A stretch of 64,000 bases of DNA from a virus, in the IMG/VR virus record IMGVR_UViG_3300006201_000015, positions 5,840-69,839 of that record. One strand, written 5' to 3'. The translations under genes and the position numbers were made by a program. Shown here in pieces: positions 8,896 through 62,448 of the stretch. The stretch's first letter is position 1. Every line of letters begins with the position of its first letter. The notes below the pieces were generated by a model. It was given only the letters and a program-made list of their open reading frames with translations, had not been told where the DNA came from and ran no database searches.

Positions 8896-8914
8896 GATTT
8901 TGTTTGTTATTAAC
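8896..8914 (-). promoter_or_regulatory. conserved leader motif copy 2
   Basis: gattttgtttgttattaac, upstream of the 8578..8892 gene. Confidence 0.5.
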
Positions 8915-9346
8915 GAAAGATAACTACCATGCTGGGGAAAGGTGCGGAATTTTTACCATCTCCAAATTTCAACCGGCCACGGATAAAGCGGATTTCCACA
9001 TTGGGTTTCAAATAGATATAGTCGTGAAAATATGCCGTATCTGTTCTGGCAGGTATCAGCAGCACCACAGTGGTATTAGGCTGCTTGGCTTCCTCGAAGC
9101 ATTTCTTCACCCAGTCTTTGATAGCCTTGCCATACGGCGGGTTGCAGAAGACTGTCTGCCCCCCCACGACTGTTTCAGTCCATCGTCCGTCTCTGTAAAG
9201 TAGTGGGCGCATTTGTGGTTGGACTGATTGGCGCAGGGGTCAAGGGTGAAGTGAAACTCCGAATCCAGCTGGTTAAAGAAATCTTGTGGCGTCGCCCAGT
9301 CCATAGCTTTGGACGAGAACATAACCTCTGTATTCATTTGCTTCAC
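8910..9346 (-). pseudogene. Dam-like N6-adenine DNA methyltransferase, split by a frameshift at a C7 tract (9159-9165)
   Basis: N-terminal frame carries DPCANQSNH, C-terminal frame carries VFCNPPYGKAIKDW (NPPY motif IV). One extra C (8 instead of 7) rejoins the frames as ...KQSWGGQTVFCNPPYG. Confidence 0.6.
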
Positions 9347-16662: not shown

Positions 16663-17457
16663 TTATTCTGCTTGTATCCACTTAAAAGCGGTTTCGGCGT
16701 TGGTGGCGCGTGTAGATTTGCCAGCGCCGCGCTCATAGTAACTGCAAAAATATTTGGCTGCGTCGCCTGGGTCGGCAATAGCGCAAAACTCATCATAGTC
16801 TCCGCCGAAGTAATCCATATTGGTACGAATGTTGCTCATTAAGTAATCAAGCTGGCCGGTGATATCTGCACCGTCAACCGAAGGGTTATAATAAAGGCTC
16901 CACTGGCATAGGCCGTAGTAATAGCTGCCATCATACCCATAAATATCCCACTGCAAATCCAAGGTTTGACCGCCGCACTCGGTCATCATGTTGCCAAGGA
17001 TGCCGGCAATCACAATATCTGACATACCCTGTGTGTTTAGATATTCATAAACCTGACCAGCTACATCATACTCAGATTTCAGTCGTTCAATCTTCTTTGC
17101 AGTGGGGGGGGGATCATCATCTATCGCTTTAAGTACCTCTTCGCCGGTGCGGTTATCTATAAAGAGTTCGGTTTTCTCATACGGCAGGTTTAGCCGATCT
17201 ATCTTGAAATTTCTTTGCTCTTCATAAATCTCCCCAACAAGCATGGCGTACTTACTACCGTCTTTGGCGCACTCTCGCATCTGGCGGTAATAATCCACAC
17301 CATCTTGATAGCCGACAACTTCAATTTGGTCGGTGATCAGTAAAGGAGCAAGAGCTTTTACCCCAACGCCCAAAATTGTGAAGCCGACCAGCGCTACAAG
17401 AAAGAGCACCGTTATCTTTTTCACCGGCACAAGGCCGGATCGTCGTTTGTTATTCAT
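16663..17457 (-). CDS. membrane-anchored lysozyme-like domain protein (phage tail-type lysozyme fold)
   Basis: N-terminal TM helix, then GILGNMMTECGG...GLCQWS motif. Contains an in-frame G9 tract (17104-17112) that encodes PPP. Confidence 0.45.
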   Translation of the reverse strand: MNNKRRSGLVPVKKITVLFLVALVGFTILGVGVKALAPLLITDQIEVVGYQDGVDYYRQMRECAKDGSKYAMLVGEIYEEQRNFKIDRLNLPYEKTELFIDNRTGEEVLKAIDDDPPPTAKKIERLKSEYDVAGQVYEYLNTQGMSDIVIAGILGNMMTECGGQTLDLQWDIYGYDGSYYYGLCQWSLYYNPSVDGADITGQLDYLMSNIRTNMDYFGGDYDEFCAIADPGDAAKYFCSYYERGAGKSTRATNAETAFKWIQAE

Positions 17458-33773: not shown

Positions 33774-34031
33774 TTAATCGTCACCAAACGATTTGAGCAT
33801 AAAGCATGAGTCGCAATAGCACTCACCGCTTGATTCGATTCGTACATATTCGCCGGTAATTGCTTCGCCACAGCCGTCGCACACGATTGTTGACGCATAT
33901 GCCCCATCGCAGACTGGGCAACCGCTGAATTGCTCATATGGTGGCGTGTCCAATCCGTGACGTTCTTCCCATCTCTTGGGTTCATCGAAAGTCGCCCCAC
34001 AGTCCAAACAGGTGTATTCTCCCAACATCAA
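33774..34031 (-). CDS. zinc-ribbon protein
   Basis: CLDCGA...CPVCDG...CDGCGE...C..C. Confidence 0.3.
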   Translation of the reverse strand: MMLGEYTCLDCGATFDEPKRWEERHGLDTPPYEQFSGCPVCDGAYASTIVCDGCGEAITGEYVRIESSGECYCDSCFMLKSFGDD

Positions 34032-34321
34032 TGCTTAACCACTTTCCAAACGGCAGTATTGCGAGTGGTGATCTGACTCCGGCGTTTGCCGACCACCTCT
34101 ACTACACCATCCTCTTTCAACTCTGTCAAACGAGGACGAGTAAAGTTAGGGTCAATGTGAGAAATCTTTCCGTCGTGAAGAAGCTGCTGGGCAATCTCTT
34201 CCGCCGTCATACCCCCAGGATCGCCATTCTTTAGCACCTCCAGGATCATATCCTTACGGCTTTCCCGTTTCGGTTTAATCTCATTGTAGGCTTCACGACG
34301 ATTCATAATTACGATGCTCAA
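34028..34321 (-). CDS. winged-helix DNA-binding protein
   Basis: ILEVLKNGDPGGMTAEEIAQQL...LKEDGVVEVV pattern. Confidence 0.4.
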   Translation of the reverse strand: MSIVIMNRREAYNEIKPKRESRKDMILEVLKNGDPGGMTAEEIAQQLLHDGKISHIDPNFTRPRLTELKEDGVVEVVGKRRSQITTRNTAVWKVVKH

Positions 34322-34339
34322 AGGATCTCATCCTTTCTA

Positions 34340-35191
34340 TTAGGAAGCTGATACCAGCCCGTTTTTGCACCCCCCCCCACCAGCTTCGGCTTTCAGGGCA
34401 CGGGCCACGGTACTTCCATCGTAAATGCGGTTAGCATCTCCGTTGTAGTCGTTGATATATCCAAGCTGGTGGAGATCGTCACTTTCGATAGCCCGATTTT
34501 GTTCGTCGCTATTAGGCGATTTATCAAAACTGGCAAGCGCCTTTTCAAAAGCGCCAATACCAGAGAAAAAAGATCCTACCACCATATCTTCAAAAAGATA
34601 CGGCATAGCTTCACACAGTTCTCCCATAATGGCACAAAGCACATCCACCACAATGGAATTTCCGGCCTGCTTGTAAAGCTGAGAGCCGCTACGGTCATTG
34701 CCACTGTATAGGTTCTGATTCATTGCGGTTTGTGCCTTAGCGAAGTCTTCGTCTGTGAAGCCCATAAGCCGCCAACACTCTCGCTGGGTGAGCTTTCTCA
34801 CCCGAAACCCTGGACGGATCGCGATAGGCGTTTGTCCGCCACCCATCCGTGCCGCACTGTTTACACACGGGCAAATCCCGTCCGACCGGGGAGATTGGTG
34901 TTTCTGAAGACCACCAATCATTGTAATATCGTTCTCAATCACTCTCTTGTCCCCCCCCCCGTCAATGGTGCGAATCGTGCCGCAGACATCATCTCGGAAA
35001 AACCGAATGCCCTCGTCACATCGCTGCTCACATACAATCTTCATATCTTCTTCATCCTCCATGGTAATTTCCATAACCAGTTGTCTTCGTTTCTTTTTAA
35101 GATACTGTTGGATGGTGGTGCCCTTATAGTAATTTGCATCAATGCAATATGCCACTGGTGGTGCAAGCAACACCTTTACCAAGTCATTCAT
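34340..35191 (-). CDS. DNA cytosine-5 methyltransferase, C-terminal segment (TRD, motifs IX and X, then a motif-I-like FFSGIGAF); possibly a separate beta subunit
   Basis: NYYKG TRD motif, RKLTQRECWRLMGF (IX), QAGNSIVVDV (X), then VVGSFFSGIGAFEKAL (motif I-like). Own SD (AGGAG) and ATG that overlap the upstream frame's stop. Contains in-frame C10 (34951-34960) and C9 (34370-34378) tracts. Confidence 0.65.
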   Translation of the reverse strand: MNDLVKVLLAPPVAYCIDANYYKGTTIQQYLKKKRRQLVMEITMEDEEDMKIVCEQRCDEGIRFFRDDVCGTIRTIDGGGDKRVIENDITMIGGLQKHQSPRSDGICPCVNSAARMGGGQTPIAIRPGFRVRKLTQRECWRLMGFTDEDFAKAQTAMNQNLYSGNDRSGSQLYKQAGNSIVVDVLCAIMGELCEAMPYLFEDMVVGSFFSGIGAFEKALASFDKSPNSDEQNRAIESDDLHQLGYINDYNGDANRIYDGSTVARALKAEAGGGGCKNGLVSAS

Positions 35192-35391
35192 TCTTCTCCA
35201 TCACTCCTGTCATTTGCTGGTTCCCAAAGCCTTTGTAATCGCGGGCCAGCAGTGCCAAGGCTGTATCGCAGTACCCTTCAAACTTGCTTCCTTTCTTACT
35301 CAGTTTCACGCCGGAAAGAGAGCAAATCCCATGAGTGCCTGTCTGTGGAGCCTCGACCTCCGGCTCTGACGGTGTTACTGATTGGTTTGAG
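35184..35391 (-). CDS. C5-methyltransferase segment in a third frame (second TRD-like block), reached from segment B by a shift at the G8 tract
   Basis: Translation ...GICSLSGVKLSKKGSKFEGYCDTALALLARDYKGFGNQ contains a TL.A..YKG-type TRD motif. Open frame from the tract (35393-35400) to a stop that overlaps the next ATG. Confidence 0.4.
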
Positions 35392-35836
35392 CGGGGGGGG
35401 TAATCATGGCAGCTACTTTATCGTCAGATAGGTAATAGCGCTCGTCAACATGGTCGTCAAGCATATCGACCAGCGCCTTTTTCAGCGGAATCGGCGTGGG
35501 AAACTTGAATTTTCCGTTGTCCAGATCCTTGCGGACGATGACACAATACACACGCTCTCGGTTTTGAGGAATACCATAGTGTTTTGCGTTCAGCACCTGC
35601 CAATAGACATTGTAGCCGTAGTCTTCCAACTCTTTTACAAAGAGGTCGAAAGTGGTGCGGAAGCGGGAACCAGTAATGTTTTTGACATTTTCATAGATGG
35701 CAAAGCGGGGCTTCTTTTCTCTCAGGAAGCGCAACCATTCGACGAGCAAAGAAGAACGAGTCTTCTCAATCTCGGTTGAACCACACTTAGGGCAATGGTC
35801 ACGCTGATCGTAGTGAGCTTCCAGAGGGTTGTACAC
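35375..35836 (-). CDS. C5-methyltransferase segment B (motifs V-VIII and TRD start)
   Basis: TRSSLL (V), FAIYENVKNI (VI), QNRERVY (VIII), YYLSDDK. Ends ...ITPPAQTNQ, read across the G8 tract. Confidence 0.65.
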   Translation of the reverse strand: MYNPLEAHYDQRDHCPKCGSTEIEKTRSSLLVEWLRFLREKKPRFAIYENVKNITGSRFRTTFDLFVKELEDYGYNVYWQVLNAKHYGIPQNRERVYCVIVRKDLDNGKFKFPTPIPLKKALVDMLDDHVDERYYLSDDKVAAMITPPAQTNQ

Positions 35837-35849
35837 ATGACCGCAGTGT

Positions 35850-36062
35850 TTACAAGTCCATGCAGCCCCCCCCCTGTTTGCCCGCTATGCTGAAGTCCTG
35901 GCACGGGCTTCCACCAAACATGGTGTTAAAATCTGGAACAGCTTTCTCGTCGGCCTGTGTGATATCACCGATGTTGGCTGTCGAATCGACACCGTGAATG
36001 GCGCAATAGCTTTCTGCGGCGTACTTATCGAACTCGCAGAAAAGGGCGGTTTTGAAATCCAA
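35850..36062 (-). CDS. C5-methyltransferase segment A (post-motif-I region, motif IV PCQ); TTG start behind a consensus sigma-70 promoter
   Basis: EFDKYAAESYCAIHG, then GGSPCQDFSIAGKQ. Terminates after the C9 tract (35866-35874). Motif I is absent from this N-terminus. Confidence 0.65.
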   Translation of the reverse strand: MDFKTALFCEFDKYAAESYCAIHGVDSTANIGDITQADEKAVPDFNTMFGGSPCQDFSIAGKQGGGCMDL

Positions 36063-36068
36063 GGTTCT

Positions 36069-36097
36069 TACCTCCTATATTATAGCGTATTTCGGGC
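36069..36097 (-). promoter_or_regulatory. consensus sigma-70/sigma-A promoter (TTGACA-17-TATAAT) driving the C5-methyltransferase locus
   Basis: Minus strand reads TTGACAagaagcccgaaatacgcTATAATataGGAGGtaagaaccTTG. Confidence 0.55.
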
Positions 36098-36098
36098 T

Positions 36099-36118
36099 TC
36101 TTGTCAACGATTTTGTTC
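36099..36118 (-). promoter_or_regulatory. conserved leader motif copy 9 (here followed by the consensus sigma-70 promoter rather than an SD)
   Basis: gattttgttcgttgttaatg. Confidence 0.5.
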
Positions 36119-36135
36119 GTTGTTAATGAAGTTTT

Positions 36136-36662
36136 TTATGCGCTTTTGTCGATCTCCTCAAAGATGATTTGCTTCGGGAGTATGCTGTAGCACACATACA
36201 CGCTACTGAACGGCGGGTTAAGCGACGGTTTTTGATCCGTATAACTCTTGAAGTAAGAGACACGGCGGTTCAGATACATAATCTCGAAATCGTGATCTCG
36301 GAACATACTGAACCGCCGCTGGCTCTCAAAGAGTCCCACCACACCGACCAGCATGGCAAAGGGGATTTTGAGCTGGAACAGCCGCTCAAACACTTCACCT
36401 TTCAGAGAGTAGGGCGGGTTGCTGATAATATAGTCGCACTGTGGCGGTTCCAACTCAAAGAAATCCTGCCCGTTGCAAATGTGCGTAGCAATTACGGTAT
36501 ACCCGCGCTGGCGGAACAGCTTTACGAATAGGCTATCCTCCGTGTCAAAGGGGCACCATATCACTGCGGGGGGGGTGCTAAATACTTGTACAGCGGAGCA
36601 ATCGCATACTCCGGCGTGTAGAACTCGTCGTTGCCGCTACCGGCAACTTTATCCATCTTCAT
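36136..36662 (-). pseudogene. N6-adenine DNA methyltransferase split by a frameshift at a G8 tract (36568-36575)
   Basis: Upstream frame: MKMDKVAGSGNDEFYTPEYAIAPLYKYLAPP. Downstream frame: AVIWCPFD...ISNPPYSLKG (NPPY). One extra G fuses the two frames. Confidence 0.6.
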
Positions 36663-36707
36663 AAAAGATTCCTCCTTGGTCATAAAAGTCTGCTTTCATC
36701 CTACTGA

Positions 36708-37295
36708 CTACTTTTTGTTCCCCATCATCGAATCAAGGCCAATCACGTCGGCAAGTTTTTCCCCGATTTGCCTTTTCACCTCTTCCGTAATCTTTTTCTT
36801 GATGTTGTCCGTAACTTCGGTAGTAGCCCTCTTAATTGCATATTCCATATCGTGGTTTACGGCCTTATCAAGAATGTATTCCAGGCGCGTTTTACAGGAG
36901 CCATATCCGGAGGCGGGCTTTCCAGAGCTGTCTACTTTTTGATCCAGGTATTGAGCGCAGGACTCCTTCAACTGCTCCCGAACGGTTATACCACGCTTTA
37001 CAACATCTCCCCACCTATCGGTGATGTCTTTAGGCGTGTCAAAAAACTCCTGCATCATAGCATTAAGTTTTTCGCTGATTTCGTTTTCGAGGGATGCCAT
37101 TTTTGCGTCTAAGAGTTTTCTCGCTTCGCTTTCCAAAGAGTTTGTGATGTTTGTTCCAACCTTTGCGACAATGCCCGAAAGAATTTCGTCCCTCAGCCGC
37201 CCGTCAAGGTTCTCTTCCTCGTCCAACCAGTCCAAGTTGACTGTTACATTAAATGTTGCCATTGCAAAAACCTCCATAGTTTTTAGAATGAGCAC
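36708..37295 (-). CDS. hypothetical protein
   Basis: 195 aa, predicted helical. Confidence 0.3.
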   Translation of the reverse strand: MLILKTMEVFAMATFNVTVNLDWLDEEENLDGRLRDEILSGIVAKVGTNITNSLESEARKLLDAKMASLENEISEKLNAMMQEFFDTPKDITDRWGDVVKRGITVREQLKESCAQYLDQKVDSSGKPASGYGSCKTRLEYILDKAVNHDMEYAIKRATTEVTDNIKKKITEEVKRQIGEKLADVIGLDSMMGNKK

Positions 37296-38113
37296 TCACA
37301 AGGCAAGTTGCCATCATCTTGGACAAGTTTCCTTGCTGCCGCCCAGAACTTTTGCGGCTTAGTCTTCTCAGATGGTGGTAATGCTTTTTCTTTGAGCCTG
37401 GCAAATTCCATCTCAAAATCTGAAAGATAGCCCTGTTTGAGAATGCTGTATCCGATAGCCGCCTCAGCCTGTTTTGCTTTCTCCCAGATCTCGGGATAAA
37501 GACAATAGACAATAAACCAGTGCTGTTTACCAGCTTTGAGGCAACCGGTGCAATTTGCATGATTGAAAATGCTGTAGGTCTTCGGACGTTCGATCCCAAC
37601 CTCTTCAATATTATGAACAGTACGTATCTCCCAGGTCAGCGGGTATTCCGTGTGATATCCCATAGCAGCCATGATACCAACCCTACGCTGAATACGATGC
37701 TGCTCATTAGTATCAAAGCCGTAGACCAGAGAAATATCGTCCCTTATCTGGGGAGGATTTGTGGGATAGTGCTCGGATAACCACTTATGAAACGGTTCGG
37801 TCTTTAGCCTGTTTGTGCAGAAAGCGGTTGACTGAGCGCCAGACTTGAACGCTTTAATTTCCATACACACATCAAACTGGTCTTTGACTTCCCATCCAGG
37901 CATATTGGCATAAGTGATAGGAACGCCCAAATAATCCGAAACCTCATTCTTAAAACGTTTGATATCTTCGTCTTCGGTACGGGGACATAGGTCATGATTG
38001 AGCAAAATCGTGTTCTCTGCCCCGTACCTTCTGACTACCTCCACGGCGGCGATTGCTGAAGAATGACCGCCAGAAAAACATACGATGTGTTTCATACCGA
38101 CCACAACCATCAC
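37283..38113 (-). CDS. PP-loop ATP pyrophosphatase (PAPS reductase/QueC-like superfamily)
   Basis: HIVCFSGGHSSAIAA (SGGxxS PP-loop). C-terminal CTGC. Confidence 0.6.
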   Translation of the reverse strand: MMVVVGMKHIVCFSGGHSSAIAAVEVVRRYGAENTILLNHDLCPRTEDEDIKRFKNEVSDYLGVPITYANMPGWEVKDQFDVCMEIKAFKSGAQSTAFCTNRLKTEPFHKWLSEHYPTNPPQIRDDISLVYGFDTNEQHRIQRRVGIMAAMGYHTEYPLTWEIRTVHNIEEVGIERPKTYSIFNHANCTGCLKAGKQHWFIVYCLYPEIWEKAKQAEAAIGYSILKQGYLSDFEMEFARLKEKALPPSEKTKPQKFWAAARKLVQDDGNLPCECSF

Positions 38114-38252
38114 TGGCTGAGGTCAACTGCCTAATCCTCCTAAGCTACTTTCCACAAACCTAAAGTCCGTGTTTGAATAATTTCACGCTGTAACAGGCAG
38201 CTTTACCATGTACTTATCAATCTTACATGAACCTGGTTTACCAGGATTGGTA

Positions 38253-38528
38253 TTAACTCCTTCCGTTGTTATTGTTCGTTTGTGAACTCTTGAAGTATTT
38301 TCCGATTGTAGCCAGTGTTGCACAGGCCAATGGAATGAAATCCGGGGTAAATCGGGTTGTGTTGAACATTAGGTTCATGCCACCAGCGATGGCATTGCCA
38401 ACACATACTTTTAGTATCCAGCCACCGATCCATGCACACCCAAATGTGAGAACCGGACTGAAAACCAGCAATCCGATAAATCCTAAAATGGTCGTTACAA
38501 TGCCGATACCCTCAAATGTCCTTTTCAA
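38253..38528 (-). CDS. small membrane protein
   Basis: 91 aa, 2-3 hydrophobic helices. Confidence 0.3.
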   Translation of the reverse strand: MKRTFEGIGIVTTILGFIGLLVFSPVLTFGCAWIGGWILKVCVGNAIAGGMNLMFNTTRFTPDFIPLACATLATIGKYFKSSQTNNNNGRS

Positions 38529-38545
38529 AACTTACACTCCTTTAC

Positions 38546-39552
38546 TTATTCAATAGGCACACCGATATACTCAAGCACTCTCTGCATACCAAGACCATGT
38601 TCTTCCCACGGCTTCATGCAGTAGCTCCAGAGTTTTGGGTGGGTTGTTTTCAGACGTTGGAAACGGTTCGGTGCCTTTTCCAGATGAGCGCCAAAGGCAC
38701 AAAAGACACAGCCAGTACGCTTTTCTCCTGTTGTTGTCCACCCCCCCCGTCAGTCTTAATGATCTCGCCATAGACAGGTGCATAGGGGATTTGGTAAGTG
38801 TAAAGATATTCGAGTACGTCTTCCTCTGTCCAAAACGACATAGGCTGAGAACTGGGTTTCTTGCCAGAAAAGGCGTTGCACCCCATACGCAACCATGTAG
38901 CGCGGCGGGATCGGCTCTCATTCGCCATTGTTGCGATGATAGGCACTCTTCCAGTTTCCTTAGCGTATTTCTTCATGGGGCGCTTTTTCATAACAGCACA
39001 GCATCGGGAAGATACCTTAAAGGGCGCATCCAGCAGATAACACCATTTCTCACAATTAAACTCTGAGGGTGTCCCATTGCTCCGCATAATCTCGCCGTGT
39101 AGTTCCTTCCACCGGAAGGAGCCAGGCTTATGCCCGTACTCTACTGTGTCAGCTACACGCTTGGAAACCACAGGATATCCGTATACCTCAATAACTTTTC
39201 GGAAATTCATCTCAGGTTTTACCACTACCACATTGTCTCGGCTCATGGCAAATTGGCGAACCTCTGGAAACTCTAACCCAGTATCCGAGAACACAGCCGG
39301 CACATCAGGATAGATACGCCGCACAATATCAAGGAGTACGGTCGAGTCCTTGCCGCCAGAAAAGGCCACATAGACCTTGCCATTGTAATGCTGATACCAT
39401 TCGATGATCCGAGCTGTGGTAATCTGGATTTTGCGGGGAAGAGGCAGACGCTGCATTTCTTCCAGTTGTTCCTTGCTATGCAAAACGTCCACCTCCTTGC
39501 CCGCCACCGCCTCCTCCATCAAACAGATAGAGGAGAAGCAGTAGCAAAGCAC
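38546..39552 (-). pseudogene. phage PAPS-reductase-like PP-loop protein with a frameshift at a C8 tract (38741-38748)
   Basis: VAFSGGKDSTVLLD PP-loop. With one extra C the reading continues ...DGGGWTTTGEKRTGCVFCAFGAHLEKAPNRFQRLKTTHPKLWSYC... and ends at 38546. Confidence 0.6.
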
Positions 39553-39585
39553 AACCTATGAAGATATAAACCTCATTTGACATAA

Positions 39586-40044
39586 TTAACTCCCATGGTC
39601 TTCGGTAGCCTTCGGCAGAGCAGGCTGATGAGTAGTAGCCAACCAGTAATTGATGACTTTGTTGTAGCTGTTGTCATTGCCCATGAAACGCTTGAGCATA
39701 GCGGCCATCAAACCAGTCTCTGCGCTGAAGGTGTCTCCCTGCTGACACTTCACCACAGTCTTCGTACCGTCACTCCAATAGACAATGGTAGCGGGATCGT
39801 TAAAGATCAAACGCTCAATCTCAGGAAGAAGTGTGTCGGAATGCTGCCGCATATGCCGCAGTGCAGCGTTCCAGCCATTGTGAAATCCCTCGTGATCCAT
39901 TGCCGTCTCAACCCCTTTGGATTCAGCAGGCAAAGACAGAAGCCGACGCAAATCACCATTTACTGGTACAGCCACAAAATTTGCGAGGGGGGGGTGAACC
40001 TGAACAGCCCTCAGCGGATACAAACTCATTTCATTGTTACGCAT
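39586..40044 (-). CDS. hypothetical protein
   Basis: 152 aa. An in-frame G8 tract (39987-39994) encodes HPPL near the N-terminus. Confidence 0.3.
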   Translation of the reverse strand: MRNNEMSLYPLRAVQVHPPLANFVAVPVNGDLRRLLSLPAESKGVETAMDHEGFHNGWNAALRHMRQHSDTLLPEIERLIFNDPATIVYWSDGTKTVVKCQQGDTFSAETGLMAAMLKRFMGNDNSYNKVINYWLATTHQPALPKATEDHGS

Positions 40045-40067
40045 TGCATTTTCCTCCTATAATTTGG

Positions 40068-40988
40068 TTAATGTGCATGACGGTCACAGTCATTCAAGAC
40101 CATAACCTGATTCCAGATATCCTCACCGAGCAAGCCTTTGAACTTTCTCTCCGTCTTGTTCGGGTTATCTGACTTTTCTACTGCGAAAGGTGCCATATGC
40201 CAGCGAATCAAAAGTGCTACTTTCAACCTTTCGTGCAGAGTCAAATCGGTAGTGTGGGCAAAGCTCTCATAAGCACCGACACGCTCATGTTGATAAAAAT
40301 GAGCAATATCTGTAGGTTCACCTTTGGCATTACAGAAAACTTTCGTATACTCCTTGCCAATATCGTGAATCGCTACCGCCCGGCCCAAAGAGATATCATT
40401 CACCCACTGGGGATACTGTTTGTCGAAATACTCATAGGCCGTTAGCATATGTTGCCCTACAGTAAACTCATGATGGGGATTATCGTGCTCCAGAGCTGCA
40501 AGGCGGGAGAGCAGAAGGCTGATACCGCCGATAAACGGTTCCACACCCTCAACCCAGATTTCGTCCCAGCCTTCAGCTTCCATAGGGATATCAAAACCCC
40601 GGTACATTCGGTCGATCACATTCTCTGGAACACTACGTTCACGGTTGGCGTTGCGCTCTACACAGAGGATATACGGCGTCGCCATGAAAACGCACACTTT
40701 CTTGATCTGGGGATTAACAGCGGTGACACGATGCAGAAATCCCATTCGGCGCTTGTAACTGACATTCGTGGCGTCGTAGACCACATCTTTACCAGCACGC
40801 AAATCGGAGAGCACACGGTCATGGAGCGTCTGGAATACCAGCTCCTGGTGGTTTTGGTCGGAGATGTCACTCAGTAGCTCTTCACGAATGGTATCACTGG
40901 AATGGATCACGGCGTCAGGCAACTTGTTCTCGGCATACCAAGACTTTCCACTTCCAGGAAGACCAACCATCATATAGAAGCACTGCAT
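40068..40988 (-). CDS. polynucleotide kinase (P-loop) fused to an HD-domain phosphohydrolase; putative RNA end-healing enzyme
   Basis: Walker A GLPGSGKS at the N-terminus. C-terminal HD region (HDIGK ... H..D). Confidence 0.6.
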   Translation of the reverse strand: MQCFYMMVGLPGSGKSWYAENKLPDAVIHSSDTIREELLSDISDQNHQELVFQTLHDRVLSDLRAGKDVVYDATNVSYKRRMGFLHRVTAVNPQIKKVCVFMATPYILCVERNANRERSVPENVIDRMYRGFDIPMEAEGWDEIWVEGVEPFIGGISLLLSRLAALEHDNPHHEFTVGQHMLTAYEYFDKQYPQWVNDISLGRAVAIHDIGKEYTKVFCNAKGEPTDIAHFYQHERVGAYESFAHTTDLTLHERLKVALLIRWHMAPFAVEKSDNPNKTERKFKGLLGEDIWNQVMVLNDCDRHAH

Positions 40989-40989
40989 T

Positions 40990-41793
40990 TTACTTACCCT
41001 CCTGTAATTCCATCAGAAACCGCCGCTTCAAAATCTCCACCGTCGCTGTCTGTAGCACCTGATCGGCGTGCTGATTGATTGCGAGAGGCACTGTATCCAT
41101 ATATTGCTTTTTATCGGCGATCATGGAATCAACTGCCTCCTGCATAAGCTGCCGCGCCTCCTCTAAGGTGTGACACCCTCTTTTTACCTCTACAAGGTAA
41201 TCCGACTGTTTGCTAACCAGACAATCAAAATAATTTTCGCCGGCCATATAGCGGGTCATAAATTCCCGCATCCGCAAGGCATGATGAAGCTGCTTAGGGT
41301 CGTACCCAAATTGCTCAATCTTGGCAAGAGCGGCGGGATAAGGATGCTCCATAGCGTGTTGCTTTTCCAACGCCATACCCAGCAGACAACTCATACCAGC
41401 ATAGTTGTTATAGCGGGCAATATCTTCTCTGGCGTCCAACACCGATTGAAACAGATCGGTGTAGAGCGGGTTGATAATGCAGTAGGGCGTGAACAGAATC
41501 TCAATGAAATTGACGTTTTGTTTGCGAATACACTCAAACATGAGCCGAATATCCTTAAAGTCCACGTGCTCATCGTTTTCCATAACATGGGTGGTGCTGA
41601 CGGGCTTGTGGGTAAGAACGAAATCTGAGAAGCTGGGGAGTACGATTGCCTTGGTATCAATATCGCTACTCTCATAATCCAGTTTGTAATTTTGTGAACC
41701 TTGCAGGAACAGGCCAACCCACGCATCTCCGAAGTGTTCTTGAACGGTAGCCAAATGCTCTTGCATCCGAGCCATAATGCGCTCCTTATTCAT
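40990..41793 (-). CDS. Pol-beta-superfamily nucleotidyltransferase
   Basis: GLFLQGSQNYKLDYESSDIDTKAIV (GS...DxD nucleotidyltransferase signature). Confidence 0.5.
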   Translation of the reverse strand: MNKERIMARMQEHLATVQEHFGDAWVGLFLQGSQNYKLDYESSDIDTKAIVLPSFSDFVLTHKPVSTTHVMENDEHVDFKDIRLMFECIRKQNVNFIEILFTPYCIINPLYTDLFQSVLDAREDIARYNNYAGMSCLLGMALEKQHAMEHPYPAALAKIEQFGYDPKQLHHALRMREFMTRYMAGENYFDCLVSKQSDYLVEVKRGCHTLEEARQLMQEAVDSMIADKKQYMDTVPLAINQHADQVLQTATVEILKRRFLMELQEGK

Positions 41794-49637: not shown

Positions 49638-49656
49638 AGTGTTCTTTTACCTCCGT

Positions 49657-49823
49657 CAGTTTTTATTTGCTGTGTCGTCTTCGCTGGGATCTTCCTCGTC
49701 CATTGCGTCTTTTGCATCCTTCCAAACTCGTCCGACAAAACGACCGAGCGGCCTAAATACGAATGATAGCAGCACCCACAGCACAGCCGCTAACACAAAG
49801 ACCAGGAAAATGAATACCGGCAT
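49657..49823 (-). CDS. small membrane protein co-transcribed with the SPFH gene (NfeD-like partner?)
   Basis: 55-aa ORF MPVFIFLVFVLAAVLWVLLSFVF..., not in the track (<60 aa). The usual SD is replaced by a G9 tract. Confidence 0.35.
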
Positions 49824-49850
49824 CTCTACCCCCCCCCATAAGCATACATT

Positions 49851-61420: not shown

Positions 61421-62362
61421 TTACTTTGCGCCCACCCCGGCCAGCAGGGAGGCCATCTTGTCCATCATGGCGTGTCCGTCCATGATACGGCCCCAGTTGT
61501 TCTCCCAGTAGTTGGCCGTCTGACGGCGGGGAGCGTTGTGGCCTACCATATCGCTCATGGCGTTCAAAGCGCCCCAGGCGGTGCCCTTGAACTTGGCGAT
61601 GTCCGGGGCGAAGTAGCAGACCATGTACTCCGTGCGGGCTTTCTTCGCGTTCTGCTTCTCACGGTCGGTGCTATCCTCAGCGATGGGGAACATCTCATCC
61701 AGAATCTTGGCGATCTCCTCATCCTTGATGGTCTTGTTCGCCAGGTTGTCAGCGTACACGGCCAGCTTGTCCATGTACTTGTTTGCCATATCCAGACACA
61801 TCCGCGCCTCGTGGAGCTTGGCCTGAATGTCTCCAGTATGCCGCACAGACCATGCCCGCTTTGCGCCGTTCAGGGCGATGTTCAGGGTGTTGTTGCAAAC
61901 CACACGCACCGGCGTCATGCAGACACGGATAGCGCCACTCCCGTCGTGGGTGTTGGAGAAGCACAGATACGGCTCCGTCTTGTCGCCGACGATCTCCGTG
62001 TCGGGCAGCTTTGCCAACAGCCAAATCTTCCGGCCACCCCGAAGGGAACCCGCCGTGTCATACCGCACGGGAACGTCACCACCGATCAGGGCGTCGGTAA
62101 AAGCAAAGGCGTCCACGTTCTGAACGATCTTGTACTGGTCAGACACAACCCCCAGCACAGACCCGTCACTGCTCCGCACGTTGGCCTTGTAGTTGGGAAT
62201 GACTGCGCCAGTGGGCAGGTGAACATCGTGCCGATCCACCGTCCAGTTCAGCCCAGCCAGCCGCAGCGCGTCGGCGCTGGTAGGCGCTTCCTCCACCCGT
62301 GTGCCCAGACCGTGCCAGGGCTTCTCACGAACATACATCATAGTCTCCACATTAGCAGCCAT
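61421..62362 (-). CDS. DUF932-family protein (phage/conjugative-element associated)
   Basis: MAANVETMMYVREKPWHGLGTRV...ADALRLAGLNWTV N-terminus, typical of DUF932. Start trimmed from the track's 62593 to the Met that follows the RBS. Confidence 0.6.
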   Translation of the reverse strand: MAANVETMMYVREKPWHGLGTRVEEAPTSADALRLAGLNWTVDRHDVHLPTGAVIPNYKANVRSSDGSVLGVVSDQYKIVQNVDAFAFTDALIGGDVPVRYDTAGSLRGGRKIWLLAKLPDTEIVGDKTEPYLCFSNTHDGSGAIRVCMTPVRVVCNNTLNIALNGAKRAWSVRHTGDIQAKLHEARMCLDMANKYMDKLAVYADNLANKTIKDEEIAKILDEMFPIAEDSTDREKQNAKKARTEYMVCYFAPDIAKFKGTAWGALNAMSDMVGHNAPRRQTANYWENNWGRIMDGHAMMDKMASLLAGVGAK

Positions 62363-62448
62363 TTTTCTGTTCCTCCTCAAATTTGTTTGTGATTGGTGGG
62401 GGGGGGAGGAATGTCCCCTCCCCATTGTACTTACAAGATGCAATAGGG

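What the first reader, a model, noticed from the sequence alone, without database searches (positions are those of the whole stretch)
34340..36118. C5-cytosine methyltransferase with motif I at the C-terminus (apparent circular permutation), multiple TRD-like blocks and a possible alpha/beta split
- Motifs run in this order along the minus strand:
  - promoter, TTG start, EFDKYAAESY (the region that normally follows motif I)
  - PCQ (IV), a zinc-ribbon-like insertion (CKHC...CPKC), TRSSLL (V), ENV (VI), QNRERVY (VIII)
  - a TRD block with YYLSDDK
  - a second TRD block (TALALLARDYKG, third frame)
  - stop overlapping an SD+ATG
  - a third TRD block (NYYKG), RKLTQRECWRLMGF (IX), GNSIVVDV (X)
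  - finally VVGSFFSGIGAFEKALASFDK, a textbook motif I (FxGxGG)
- The N-terminus lacks motif I. An in-frame stop lies 5 codons upstream of the TTG start.
- The C-terminal '...FEKALASFDK' resembles the N-terminal 'DFKTALFCEFDK'. This is the signature of a permutation by tandem duplication and truncation.
- Repeated TL.A..Y.KG-type TRD motifs recall the multispecific Bacillus-phage methyltransferases (SPR, phi3T).
- The gene is also broken at two homopolymer tracts.
Basis: seen in the sequence. Interest (0 to 1): 0.6.

Follow-up and report, generated by a model that had tools for sequence, protein, structure and literature searches.

The report
Rearranged, switchable phage cytosine methyltransferase
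A prophage of gut Clostridia carries a two-gene DNA cytosine methyltransferase whose cofactor-binding segment has moved from the front of the protein to the back, and whose DNA-recognition modules appear to be switched on, off or swapped by slippage-prone runs of G or C; this combination has not been described for this enzyme class.

Summary
On the minus strand, 36062-34340 reads motif II, IV (PCQ), a Zn-ribbon insert, V, VI, VIII, several recognition modules (TRDs), IX, X and then motif I (SFFSGIGAFEKAL). There is no motif I upstream.

It is not a one-off. Over 100 protein clusters (50% identity) share X→I. Intact 510-730 aa relatives in Lachnospiraceae prophages end about 20 aa after motif I. 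The breakpoint lies between motifs I and II. A 2018 REBASE survey found natural permutants only in the variable region, though engineered I/II permutants were active.

Three further points:
- An HhaI-like TRD follows motif I and is the only TRD in some intact relatives.
- The α/β split is a conserved two-gene arrangement.
- Four G/C runs of 8-10 nt sit at conserved sites, and their lengths vary between otherwise identical genomes.

One run is an ON/OFF switch. One selects between two TRDs in different frames, or a stop. One toggles the C-terminal TRD.

In this window α is OFF (G9, not G8), α carries no TRD (C8) and the C-terminal TRD is truncated (G9). Three other DNA-modification genes here carry similar tracts.

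Not shown: activity, specificities, and switching within a clone. Sequencing error in this window's tract lengths cannot be excluded.

The parts
36079..36107 (-). Sigma-70-type promoter TTGACA-17 nt-TATAAT, followed by GGAGG and the TTG start at 36062
   Evidence: 12 of 12 consensus match; sequence read
35850..36062 (-). Alpha subunit, first part. It starts at motif II (ALFCEFDKYAAESY, 36006-36047) and runs through motif IV (GGSPCQDFS, 35889-35915). There is no motif I. As sequenced it stops at 35850 because tract 1 is out of frame.
   Evidence: Pfam PF00145 matches profile positions 22-82. Homologue N-termini all start M(D/N)(Y/F)(K/R)TALFCEFDKYA.
35866..35874 (-). Tract 1: G9 on the coding strand, between motif IV and the Zn ribbon. 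G8 is the in-frame length (KQGGAAW). Proposed master ON/OFF switch of alpha; OFF in this window.
   Evidence: At the orthologous site other loci carry G8 (33), G9 (25) or G7 (7). It is G8 in the near-identical isolate genome L081.
35375..35865 (-). Alpha subunit, second part: Zn-ribbon insert CKHC..CPKC (35780-35854), motif V (35735-35761), VI (35678-35704), VIII (35546-35572) and the hinge YYLSDDKVAAMITPP (35393-35437). With C8 it ends PPAQTNQ*.
   Evidence: Pfam PF00145 E=5.6e-33 over profile 81-213. Several sub-threshold Zn-ribbon family hits.
35393..35400 (-). Tract 2: C8 on the coding strand, right after the hinge. Proposed three-way selector. C7 or C10 reads the SNT module, C9 reads the ARDYKG module, and C8 or C11 reads an immediate stop (the state here).
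   Evidence: C9 in L081.
35296..35403 (-). Alternative-frame recognition module 'SNT' (LPPPLKPISNTVRAGGRGSTDRHSWDLLSFRRETE*). It is read only when tract 2 is C7 or C10.
   Evidence: Substitutions at codon positions 1/2/3 of this frame are 26/12/37, a coding-like pattern. The same module is in frame in canonical relatives P0231 and P0378.
35184..35399 (-). Alternative-frame linker plus recognition module 'ARDYKG' (..KLSKKGSKFEGYCDTALALLARDYKGFGNQQMTGVMEKNE*). It is read when tract 2 is C9. Its stop overlaps the beta ATG.
   Evidence: In the ARDYKG-only part, substitutions by codon position are 14/6/49. It forms the alpha C-terminus in P0126, P0129, P0135 and P0142.
34340..35191 (-). Beta subunit ORF (283 aa). 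It holds recognition modules CIDANY (35075-35155), IRTID (34934-35041) and GGLQ (34817-34927). These are followed by motif IX (34757-34807), motif X (34637-34681), the linker AMPYLFEDM (34583-34609), motif I VVGSFFSGIGAFEKALASF (34526-34582) and a C-terminal recognition module (34340-34474).
   Evidence: PHROG families 17284 and 16427 match residues 119-216, through motif I.
34951..34960 (-). Tract 3: G10 on the coding strand, inside the IRTID module (TIDGGGDK). In frame in this window.
   Evidence: G9-G10 at the orthologous site in other loci.
34370..34378 (-). Tract 4: G9 on the coding strand, inside the C-terminal module. G8 would read AEAGGGGAKTGWYQLPNRKDEIL*. As sequenced the module is cut short (..GGGGCKNGLVSAS*).
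   Evidence: The orthologous site reads in frame in 40 loci and out of frame in 29.
34318..34377 (-). Alternative-frame end of the C-terminal recognition module (GGGAKTGWYQLPNRKDEIL*). This is its complete, HhaI-like form.
   Evidence: A profile of this module matches only M.HhaI residues 233-267 in the whole PDB, E=0.0056.

Best explanation
The locus encodes an orphan, phage-borne, multispecific-type C5-cytosine DNA methyltransferase made from two translationally coupled genes.

Composition
- Alpha carries motifs II-VIII, including the catalytic PCQ cysteine, ENV and QxRxR, plus a Zn-ribbon insert.
- Beta carries motifs IX and X and then the AdoMet-binding motif I. Motif I has been relocated behind motif X, so the permutation breakpoint lies in the loop between motifs I and II.
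- Alpha and beta are inferred to assemble into one HhaI-like fold. The C-terminal strand and helix of beta would fill the position of the first strand of the Rossmann-like sheet.
- Recognition modules (TRDs) hang on three chain ends: the alpha C-terminus, the beta N-terminus and the beta C-terminus after motif I.

Switching
- G/C runs of 7-11 nt sit at conserved sites and change length by slipped-strand mispairing.
- Tract 1 turns alpha ON or OFF.
- Tract 2 selects one of two TRDs encoded in different frames, or neither.
- Tracts inside beta TRDs, and in the C-terminal TRD, switch individual modules.
- The C-terminal tract can also open a further TRD in another frame in some relatives.
- The expected result is a phage population that is mixed for which cytosine motifs are methylated. 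I infer this to be bet-hedging between restriction enzymes blocked by methylation and those that need it.

State of this window
- Alpha is OFF (G9), there is no alpha TRD (C8), and the C-terminal TRD is truncated (G9). Only beta is intact.

Shown: the anatomy, homology, conservation, tract variability and selection on both alternative frames.
Inferred: alpha/beta assembly, catalytic activity, TRD specificities, reversibility of switching within a lineage, and the selective benefit.
For: Permutation
- Motif order and coordinates.
- Motif I is homologous to the N-terminus of canonical relatives, and a de-permuted construct gains 11 bits in Pfam.
- No motif I lies upstream, and this holds in different genomic contexts.
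- The X then I arrangement is widespread: 58 of 80 IMG/VR loci plus tract-free intact outgroup ORFs. It is also found in NCBI proteins of Coprococcus and Mediterraneibacter gnavus and in most of the top 150 clusters at 50% identity.
- AlphaFold2 gives pLDDT 80-97 for the C-terminal strand and helix. The best structural match is M.HhaI.
- Engineered M.MpeI and M.SssI permutants opened at residues 35 and 33 gave full or near-full protection in vivo (PMC5944983). That these residues lie between motifs I and II is my own placement.

C-terminal recognition module
- It matches M.HhaI residues 233-267.
- It is the only recognition module in intact P0216, whose gene has no tracts, its own ribosome-binding site and a stop just upstream. 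The same holds for P0420.

Tracts
- They sit at conserved sites with lengths of 7-11.
- Against the isolate genome L081 (97.8% identity over 7.7 kb), the unpaired 1-nt indels fall at five tracts. The remaining gaps are paired and lie in divergent stretches near 34512-34520 and 34382.
- Pairs of loci with zero SNPs over about 2 kb differ at up to 5 tracts.
- No other frameshifts occur in the alpha core of any ingroup locus, where motif spacings are constant.
- All three frames after tract 2 keep their roles in all 12 tract-bearing loci inspected, and both TRD frames show coding-type substitution patterns.
- After the C-terminal tract of P0179, the +1 frame encodes another recognition module.
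Against: - No biochemical or methylome data exist for any family member.
- AlphaFold2 does not place any recognition module with confidence: pLDDT is below 55 for the C-terminal module. Model coordinates could not be inspected. Docking of motif I therefore rests on confidence values and on the strand assignment, not on observed contacts.
- G/C homopolymers of 8-10 nt are error-prone in sequencing. The OFF states in this single window could be artefacts, and variation between assemblies is not the same as switching within a clone.
- A recognition module attached after motif I sits at an unusual point of the fold. Only two examples with it as the sole module were found.
- Frameshifts in the N-terminal modules of beta would need internal re-initiation to keep beta expressed. 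This was not shown.
Confidence: 0.68

Rival explanations
1. Sequencing or assembly artefact. The source genome has in-frame tracts (G8, C9 or C7, G10, G8), and the apparent breaks in this window are homopolymer miscalls. The gene would then be a permuted multi-TRD methyltransferase that is simply ON.
For: - All differences from the near-identical isolate genome L081 in the alpha region are plus or minus 1 nt in G/C runs.
- Long G/C runs are known weak spots of sequencing chemistries (general knowledge).
- Several tracts in the window are out of frame at once.
Against: - About half of roughly 70 independent assemblies, including isolate genomes, are out of frame at each tract. Changes go in both directions, over lengths of 7-11.
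- One tract (39987) is in frame in the window and out of frame in L081.
- No unpaired 1-nt indels are seen outside the tracts across the 7.7 kb shared with L081 at 97.8% identity. The window's longest A/T runs are only 6-7 nt.
- The alternative frames are kept by selection, which only makes sense if they are read.
Confidence: 0.2
2. Slippage at the level of expression. The tracts act mainly at the RNA or ribosome level, through transcriptional slippage or ribosomal frameshifting on G/C runs. Any genotype would then make a mixture of alpha and beta isoforms with different recognition modules at the same time, and heritable ON/OFF states would matter little.
For: - Alternative-frame recognition modules are conserved directly downstream of tracts. 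This design would also serve expression-level recoding.
- Many genomes sit in 'OFF' lengths, which would be tolerable if slippage rescues expression.
Against: - DNA-level length differences between otherwise identical genomes are abundant.
- No stimulatory RNA structure or classical slippery heptamer was looked for or found.
- Slippage on G/C runs is generally less efficient than on A/U runs (general knowledge).
- The two mechanisms do not exclude each other.
Confidence: 0.1
3. Decaying prophage gene. The methyltransferase is a pseudogene. The C-terminal motif I and trailing recognition module are debris of a second, largely deleted tandem methyltransferase, and the frameshifts reflect relaxed selection.
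For: - The window copy cannot make full-length alpha.
- Tandem C5 methyltransferase genes exist in some phages: Xoo-sp15 and Bacillus phage CM1 matched in two pieces.
- L113 shows IX-X-I-II..VIII continuous in one ORF.
Against: - No stops or indels outside the tracts occur in any of about 64 ingroup loci.
- Substitution patterns indicate purifying selection.
- Intact, tract-free members exist with exactly this order.
- Motif I is never found at the N-terminus in the family.
- The X to I linker AMPYLFE(D/N) is strongly conserved.
Confidence: 0.04

Closest known systems
Multispecific C5 methyltransferases of Bacillus phages (SPR, phi3T, rho11s, SPbeta; here the SPbetaL3 enzyme, OQ921343.1 130006-131538)
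   Same: - Phage-borne and orphan.
- Several short recognition modules in tandem in the variable region.
- One module is shared (VSCCLDANYTKGT against VAYCIDANYYKGT), and the motif IX/X block is 35% identical.
- Motif I sequences are near-identical in type (LFSGIGAFE).
   Different: - The Bacillus enzymes are single chains in the canonical order I to X.
- They have no Zn-ribbon insert and no recognition module after motif I.
- They have no reported homopolymer switching (general knowledge).
- Specificities here are unknown.
Natural circularly permuted C5 methyltransferases of the M.BssHII type (M.BssHII, M.Alw26I, M2.Eco31I, M.Esp3I, M2.BsaI)
   Same: Motif X precedes motif I in the sequence. 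This relies on the closeness of the N- and C-termini in the fold (PMC5944983).
   Different: - Those enzymes are opened in the variable region (IX, X, I-VIII). This family is opened between motifs I and II (II-VIII, TRDs, IX, X, I).
- The 2018 REBASE survey found no natural permutant outside the variable region.
Engineered permutants cp35M.MpeI and cp33M.SssI (PMC5944983)
   Same: The new N-terminus is at residue 35 or 33. I place this between motifs I and II from my own knowledge of these enzymes. Both variants gave full or near-full protection in vivo, so this topology appears compatible with activity.
   Different: They are laboratory constructs of single-specificity CG enzymes. They are single chains, with no recognition module after motif I.
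M.AquI alpha/beta split C5 methyltransferase
   Same: Two adjacent genes split within the variable region. The fragments are thought to assemble into one enzyme (cited in PMC5944983).
   Different: M.AquI alpha holds motifs I-VIII and beta holds IX-X (general knowledge). Here motif I is on beta, and both subunits carry recognition modules.
Phase variation by simple sequence repeats in methyltransferases and other genes (type III mod 'phasevarions'; poly-G contingency genes of Campylobacter, Helicobacter and Neisseria; C-terminal sequence switching in H. canadensis, PMC2823697)
   Same: Homopolymeric G/C tracts inside ORFs. Length changes switch expression or the C-terminal sequence.
   Different: - Those cases are chromosomal genes of Proteobacteria and Campylobacterota, usually with one tract per gene.
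- Here a Clostridia prophage C5 enzyme carries 3-6 tracts.
- One tract chooses between two recognition modules encoded in overlapping frames.
M.HhaI (PDB 1MHT, 10MH and others)
   Same: Best structural match of the AlphaFold2 model. The C-terminal recognition module aligns to the HhaI recognition loops, residues 233-267 (RIYSTRGIAITLSAYGGGIFAKTGGY).
   Different: In M.HhaI this segment lies directly before motif IX. Here it follows motif I at the chain end, on a variable linker of about 25 residues.

Membership tests
C5-cytosine DNA methyltransferase (Pfam PF00145) | Conserved motifs I (FxGxG), IV (PC), VI (ENV), VIII (QxRxR), IX and X | tested here: met
   All are present, spread over the fragments. 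PF00145 E-values are 6.6e-15, 5.6e-33 and 1.5e-8. Motif I is shown by alignment to SPbeta-type and P0231 N-termini and by the 11-bit gain of the de-permuted construct.
C5-cytosine DNA methyltransferase (Pfam PF00145) | HhaI-like two-domain fold | tested here: met
   AlphaFold2 models of the intact relatives P0179 and P0216 have pTM 0.71 and 0.80. Foldseek's top hits are M.HhaI, E=5e-15.
C5-cytosine DNA methyltransferase (Pfam PF00145) | Transfers methyl to cytosine C5 in DNA | not testable with these tools
As sequenced, alpha is interrupted.
M.BssHII-type (Type H) circularly permuted C5 methyltransferases | New N-terminus in the variable region; order IX, X, I-VIII | tested here: not met
   The order here is II-VIII, TRDs, IX, X, I. 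The breakpoint is in the loop between motifs I and II.
Multispecific Bacillus-phage C5 methyltransferases (SPR / phi3T / SPbeta) | Several tandem recognition modules in one enzyme | tested here: met
   This locus has at least six module-like blocks. Homologues carry different subsets.
Multispecific Bacillus-phage C5 methyltransferases (SPR / phi3T / SPbeta) | Sequence relationship to the Bacillus-phage enzymes | tested here: met
   BLASTP E=5e-19 over module plus IX/X. Motif I is 12 of 17 identical.
Multispecific Bacillus-phage C5 methyltransferases (SPR / phi3T / SPbeta) | Single polypeptide with canonical motif order I-X | tested here: not met
   Two ORFs, and motif I lies after X.
Multispecific Bacillus-phage C5 methyltransferases (SPR / phi3T / SPbeta) | Each module confers an independent target specificity | not testable with these tools
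   Needs methylation assays.
M.AquI-type alpha/beta split C5 methyltransferase | Two adjacent genes split in the variable region | tested here: met
   The alpha stop overlaps the beta ATG. The frames differ by a constant offset in all loci without any tract, including L081 where all four C5 tracts read in frame.
M.AquI-type alpha/beta split C5 methyltransferase | Alpha carries motifs I-VIII | tested here: not met
   Alpha starts at motif II. Motif I is on beta.
Phase-variable genes driven by simple sequence repeats (contingency loci) | Homopolymer tract inside the ORF at a conserved site, longer than composition predicts | tested here: met
Phase-variable genes driven by simple sequence repeats (contingency loci) | Tract length varies between otherwise (near-)identical genomes and changes the reading frame | tested here: met
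Phase-variable genes driven by simple sequence repeats (contingency loci) | Reversible, high-frequency switching within a clonal lineage, with a phenotypic consequence | not testable with these tools
   Needs read-level or experimental data.

The most novel reading that the evidence does not exclude
The permuted, split architecture is an adaptation that puts recognition modules at free chain ends: the alpha C-terminus, the beta N-terminus and the beta C-terminus after motif I. Independent homopolymer frameshifts can then add, remove or exchange modules without ever breaking the catalytic core. Some of these modules are encoded in overlapping reading frames. The phage would thus carry a combinatorial 'specificity library' addressed by frameshifts, and would produce epigenetically diverse progeny. 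It would also show that a C5 methyltransferase recognition module can work when tethered outside its canonical VIII-IX position.
Probability: 0.4. Interest if true: 0.85.

Novelty: new variant of a known kind. Interest (0 to 1): 0.7.

Why it matters
- It would be the first natural C5 methyltransferase family opened between motifs I and II. The one systematic survey found this topology active when engineered but absent from nature (PMC5944983).
- An HhaI-type recognition module works, or at least persists as the sole module, at the chain end after motif I. This would mean these modules are more portable than assumed, which is useful for engineering targeted methylation tools.
- It points to phage-borne, multi-tract phase variation of DNA modification in abundant gut Clostridia (Oscillospiraceae and relatives). 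One tract forms a three-state selector between recognition modules in overlapping frames.
- That would be a new way for temperate phages to diversify their epigenetic coat against both methylation-sensitive and methylation-dependent host defences.
- It would also help explain why gene callers fragment these genes in metagenomes.

Tried and rejected
- DNA similarity of 34000-36700 to 50,697 phage records found no match.
- An IMG/VR scan with P0216 for more enzymes carrying only the C-terminal module found nothing.
- A missed upstream motif I is rejected. An in-frame stop lies 5 codons upstream, and the consensus promoter sits directly before the TTG. Homologues with different upstream genes (P0127, P0128, L114, L115) and the outgroup ORFs also show none.
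- The C-terminal motif I as the start of a truncated second gene is rejected. It is in frame and joined by a conserved linker. It lies at the extreme C-terminus of intact outgroup proteins, and the family never has an N-terminal copy.
- The ARDYKG module as an independent small gene (GTG ORF 35184-35309) is rejected. No ribosome-binding site is evident upstream in the sequence read, and in homologues the module is the C-terminus of alpha.
Contacts of motif I with the AdoMet pocket were therefore not inspected.
- Seven literature searches found no description of this topology or of tract-switched phage C5 enzymes. The RIMS-seq2 microbiome paper does not mention them.


Full report
**1. The observation**

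- A perfect sigma-70 consensus promoter lies at 36107-36079 (12 of 12). It is followed by GGAGG and a TTG start at 36062, with an in-frame stop five codons upstream.
- The protein begins at motif II (ALFCEFDKYAAESY). Pfam PF00145 aligns only from profile position 22.
- The order then runs: motif IV (PCQ), a CKHC..CPKC Zn-ribbon insert, V, VI (ENV), VIII (QNRERVY) and a conserved hinge (YYLSDDKVAAMITPP).
- After a frame change comes the ARDYKG recognition module. Its stop overlaps the ATG of a 283-aa ORF (35191-34340).
- That ORF holds three more recognition modules, motif IX, motif X, the linker AMPYLFEDM and then VVGSFFSGIGAFEKALASF.

The gene contains four G/C tracts (35866-74, 35393-400, 34951-60, 34370-78).

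**2. Is the C-terminal element really motif I?**

- It aligns 12 of 17 to the N-terminal motif I of a canonical SPbeta-type phage methyltransferase.
- It closely matches the N-terminus of P0231, a canonical relative that shares the Zn ribbon.
- Prepending it to alpha raises the Pfam score by 11 bits.
- AlphaFold2 models of two intact family members give a strand plus helix for this element, with pLDDT 80-93 (P0179) and 91-97 (P0216). This is as confident as the core. The overall fold matches M.HhaI best.
- I could not inspect coordinates. Docking into the AdoMet site is therefore inferred from confidence values and from the strand assignment, not seen directly.

**3. It is a family trait**

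- Both halves retrieve thousands of homologues. All close ones lack an N-terminal motif I and carry X, linker, then I.
- Of 80 IMG/VR loci, 58 share the full arrangement.
- A more distant, AT-rich group consists of intact single ORFs of 510-733 aa. They have many recognition modules and no homopolymer tracts, and motif I lies about 20 residues from the stop.
- These include NCBI proteins annotated only as 'DNA (cytosine-5-)-methyltransferase' from Coprococcus sp. HPP0074, Mediterraneibacter gnavus and others. Some carry inteins.
- A search of 1.84 billion representatives with the IX-X-I segment gave 694 hits below 1e-10. Most of the best 150 clusters (50% identity) align through motif I.
- Upstream genes differ between members, and none supplies motif I.

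**4. Comparison with known permutants**

- A 2018 survey of 20,677 REBASE entries found 27 natural permuted C5 enzymes. All were opened in the variable region, as in M.BssHII (PMC5944983).
- The same paper engineered M.MpeI and M.SssI variants opened at residues 35 and 33, which I place between motifs I and II. They were active in vivo.
- The family here is the natural counterpart of that engineered topology.
- I found no later paper describing it.

**5. The tail after motif I**

- A profile of this segment matches only M.HhaI in the whole PDB (E=0.0056). The aligned part is residues 233-267, the recognition loops.
- In P0216 and P0420 there is no recognition module between motifs VIII and IX (67 residues). 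The C-terminal one is the only candidate.
- The P0216 gene is intact and tract-free. It has its own ribosome-binding site and a stop just upstream.
- The module therefore very probably works while tethered by a variable linker of about 25 residues to the end of the motif I helix. That is an unusual attachment point. AlphaFold2 gives no confident placement for it.

**6. The alpha/beta split**

- The ARDYKG-frame stop overlaps the beta start.
- The frame offset between the two ORFs is constant in all loci and does not involve a tract.
- It persists in the isolate genome L081, where all four C5 tracts read in frame.
- Single-chain members also exist: P0179, P0215, P0216, P0166 and P0168. This argues that alpha and beta form one enzyme.

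**7. The homopolymer tracts**

*They are real and non-random.*
- The window has 10 G/C runs of 8 or more, against 0.48 expected. No runs of 6 exist, and there is a second mode at 8-10. GGG is a minor Gly codon.
- In the methyltransferase the tracts sit at orthologous sites in all close loci and in isolate genomes. Lengths range from 7 to 11.

*Their lengths change much faster than the surrounding sequence.*
- Against L081 (97.8% identity over 7.7 kb), the unpaired single-base indels fall at five tracts. The few other gaps are paired and lie in divergent stretches near 34512-34520 and 34382.
- Pairs of loci with zero SNPs in about 2 kb differ at up to five tracts.
- No ingroup locus has any other frameshift in the alpha core.

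*Each tract has a defined consequence.*

| Tract | Position | States seen across loci | State in window |
|---|---|---|---|
| 1 | between motif IV and the Zn ribbon | G8 in frame (33), G9 (25), G7 (7) | G9, OFF |
| 2 | just after the hinge | C7/C10 read the SNT module; C9 reads the ARDYKG module; C8/C11 stop within 7 codons | C8, stop |
| 3 | inside the IRTID module | G9-G10 | G10, in frame |
| 4 | inside the C-terminal module | in frame 40, out of frame 29 | G9, truncated |

- All three frames after tract 2 keep their roles in all 12 tract-bearing loci inspected, and all three states occur in nature.
- Substitution patterns show coding-type constraint on the SNT frame in the overlap (26/12/37). 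They show the same on the ARDYKG frame beyond it (14/6/49).
- In P0179 and several others, the shifted frame after tract 4 runs into a different recognition module.

**8. State of this window**

- Tract 1 is G9, so alpha is truncated after motif IV.
- Tract 2 is C8, giving a stop and no alpha recognition module.
- Tract 3 is G10, in frame.
- Tract 4 is G9, so the C-terminal module is truncated.
- As sequenced, only beta is intact and the enzyme should be OFF. Homopolymer miscalls cannot be excluded for this single sequence.

**9. Context**

- The window is phage-like: Erf-like annealing protein, exonuclease, SSB, tail lysozyme and others.
- Close relatives are prophages in Oscillospiraceae and other Clostridia isolates and MAGs.
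- No restriction endonuclease was identified among the flanking genes scanned (34028-34321 and 36136-41793), so the enzyme appears to be an orphan.
- Seven of the eleven G/C runs of 7 or more in the window lie in four DNA-modification genes. These are this C5 enzyme, an N6 enzyme just upstream, a Dam-like enzyme at about 9 kb and a PAPS-reductase-like gene at about 38.7 kb.

**10. Interpretation and limits**

The best reading is a permuted, two-subunit, multi-module phage C5 methyltransferase. Its activity and module content would be set by slippage at several conserved tracts.

- Shown: anatomy, homology, conservation, tract hypervariability between genomes, and selection on alternative frames.
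- Inferred: assembly of alpha with beta, catalytic competence, module specificities, reversibility within a lineage, re-initiation within beta after N-terminal frameshifts, and the bet-hedging benefit.

Rivals are sequencing artefact for this window's lengths, expression-level slippage, and gene decay. They are weighed in the rival section.

**11. Origin of the permutation**

- One low-coverage contig (L113) carries IX-X-linker-I-II..VIII in one ORF, flanked by recognition-module ORFs with G tracts.
- This shows that the same X-to-I junction exists in a ring opened in the variable region.
- That is compatible with a tandem-fusion intermediate but does not prove one.

Noticed in passing
window 8910-9337 (- strand), tract 9159-9165: A Dam-like N6-adenine methyltransferase (Pfam PF05869, E=1.4e-28 after repair) is split by a G7 run on its coding strand, at ..KQSWGG|QTVFCNPPYGK.
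   Followed up: partly
window 36136-36683 (- strand), tract 36568-36575: A second DNA methyltransferase lies directly upstream of the C5 gene (NPPY motif; phrog_799, E=8e-30 after repair). It is split by a C8 run on its coding strand. The run is C9 and in frame in the isolate genome L081.
   Followed up: partly
window 38546-39552 (- strand), tract 38741-38748: A PAPS-reductase-domain gene (PF01507) is split by a G8 run (..IIKTDGGG|WTTTGEKRTGCVFCAFG). The run is G9 and in frame in L081. A second PAPS-reductase-like gene (phrog_424) lies at 37283-38113.
   Followed up: partly
window 39586-40044 (- strand), tract 39987-39994: A small ORF of unknown function has an in-frame C8 run near its N-terminus. 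The run is C9 (out of frame) in L081, so here the window is ON and the isolate is OFF.
   Followed up: partly
window 49829-49837 and 62398-62406: Two 9-nt G/C runs lie outside coding sequence. The first is 5 nt upstream of the ATG of a 55-aa membrane-like ORF (49656-49823). The second is about 35 nt upstream of a phrog_1221 gene (61421-62362). They could tune translation or transcription.
   Followed up: no
window 17104-17112 (ORF 16663-17457, - strand): An in-frame C9 run (DDDPPPTAKK) lies inside a Phage_lysozyme2 (tail lysozyme) gene.
   Followed up: no
whole window: There are no A or T runs of 8 or more (1.15 expected), while G/C runs of 8 or more are about 20-fold over-represented. Most large ORFs (41 of 50) lie on the minus strand.
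   Followed up: partly
proteins P0250, P0270, P0307-P0309, P0441 (relatives, not in the window): Some family members are 800-990 aa because they carry intein-like insertions (Pfam Hint_2 and Intein_splicing). In P0441 the insertion interrupts motif IV.
   Followed up: no
L113 1-2100 (ENA ERZ842375 NODE_23350): A related contig has the core as one ORF in the order IX-X-linker-I-II..VIII. A recognition-module ORF lies upstream, and several more lie downstream in different frames with G7-G9 runs. This is a ring opened in the variable region with the same X-to-I junction.
   Followed up: partly
L043 around +290 relative to ENVKN: One locus has lost tract 2 and the SNT module by deletion. The hinge is fused in frame to the ARDYKG module, which amounts to a 'locked' variant of the three-way switch.
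   Followed up: no
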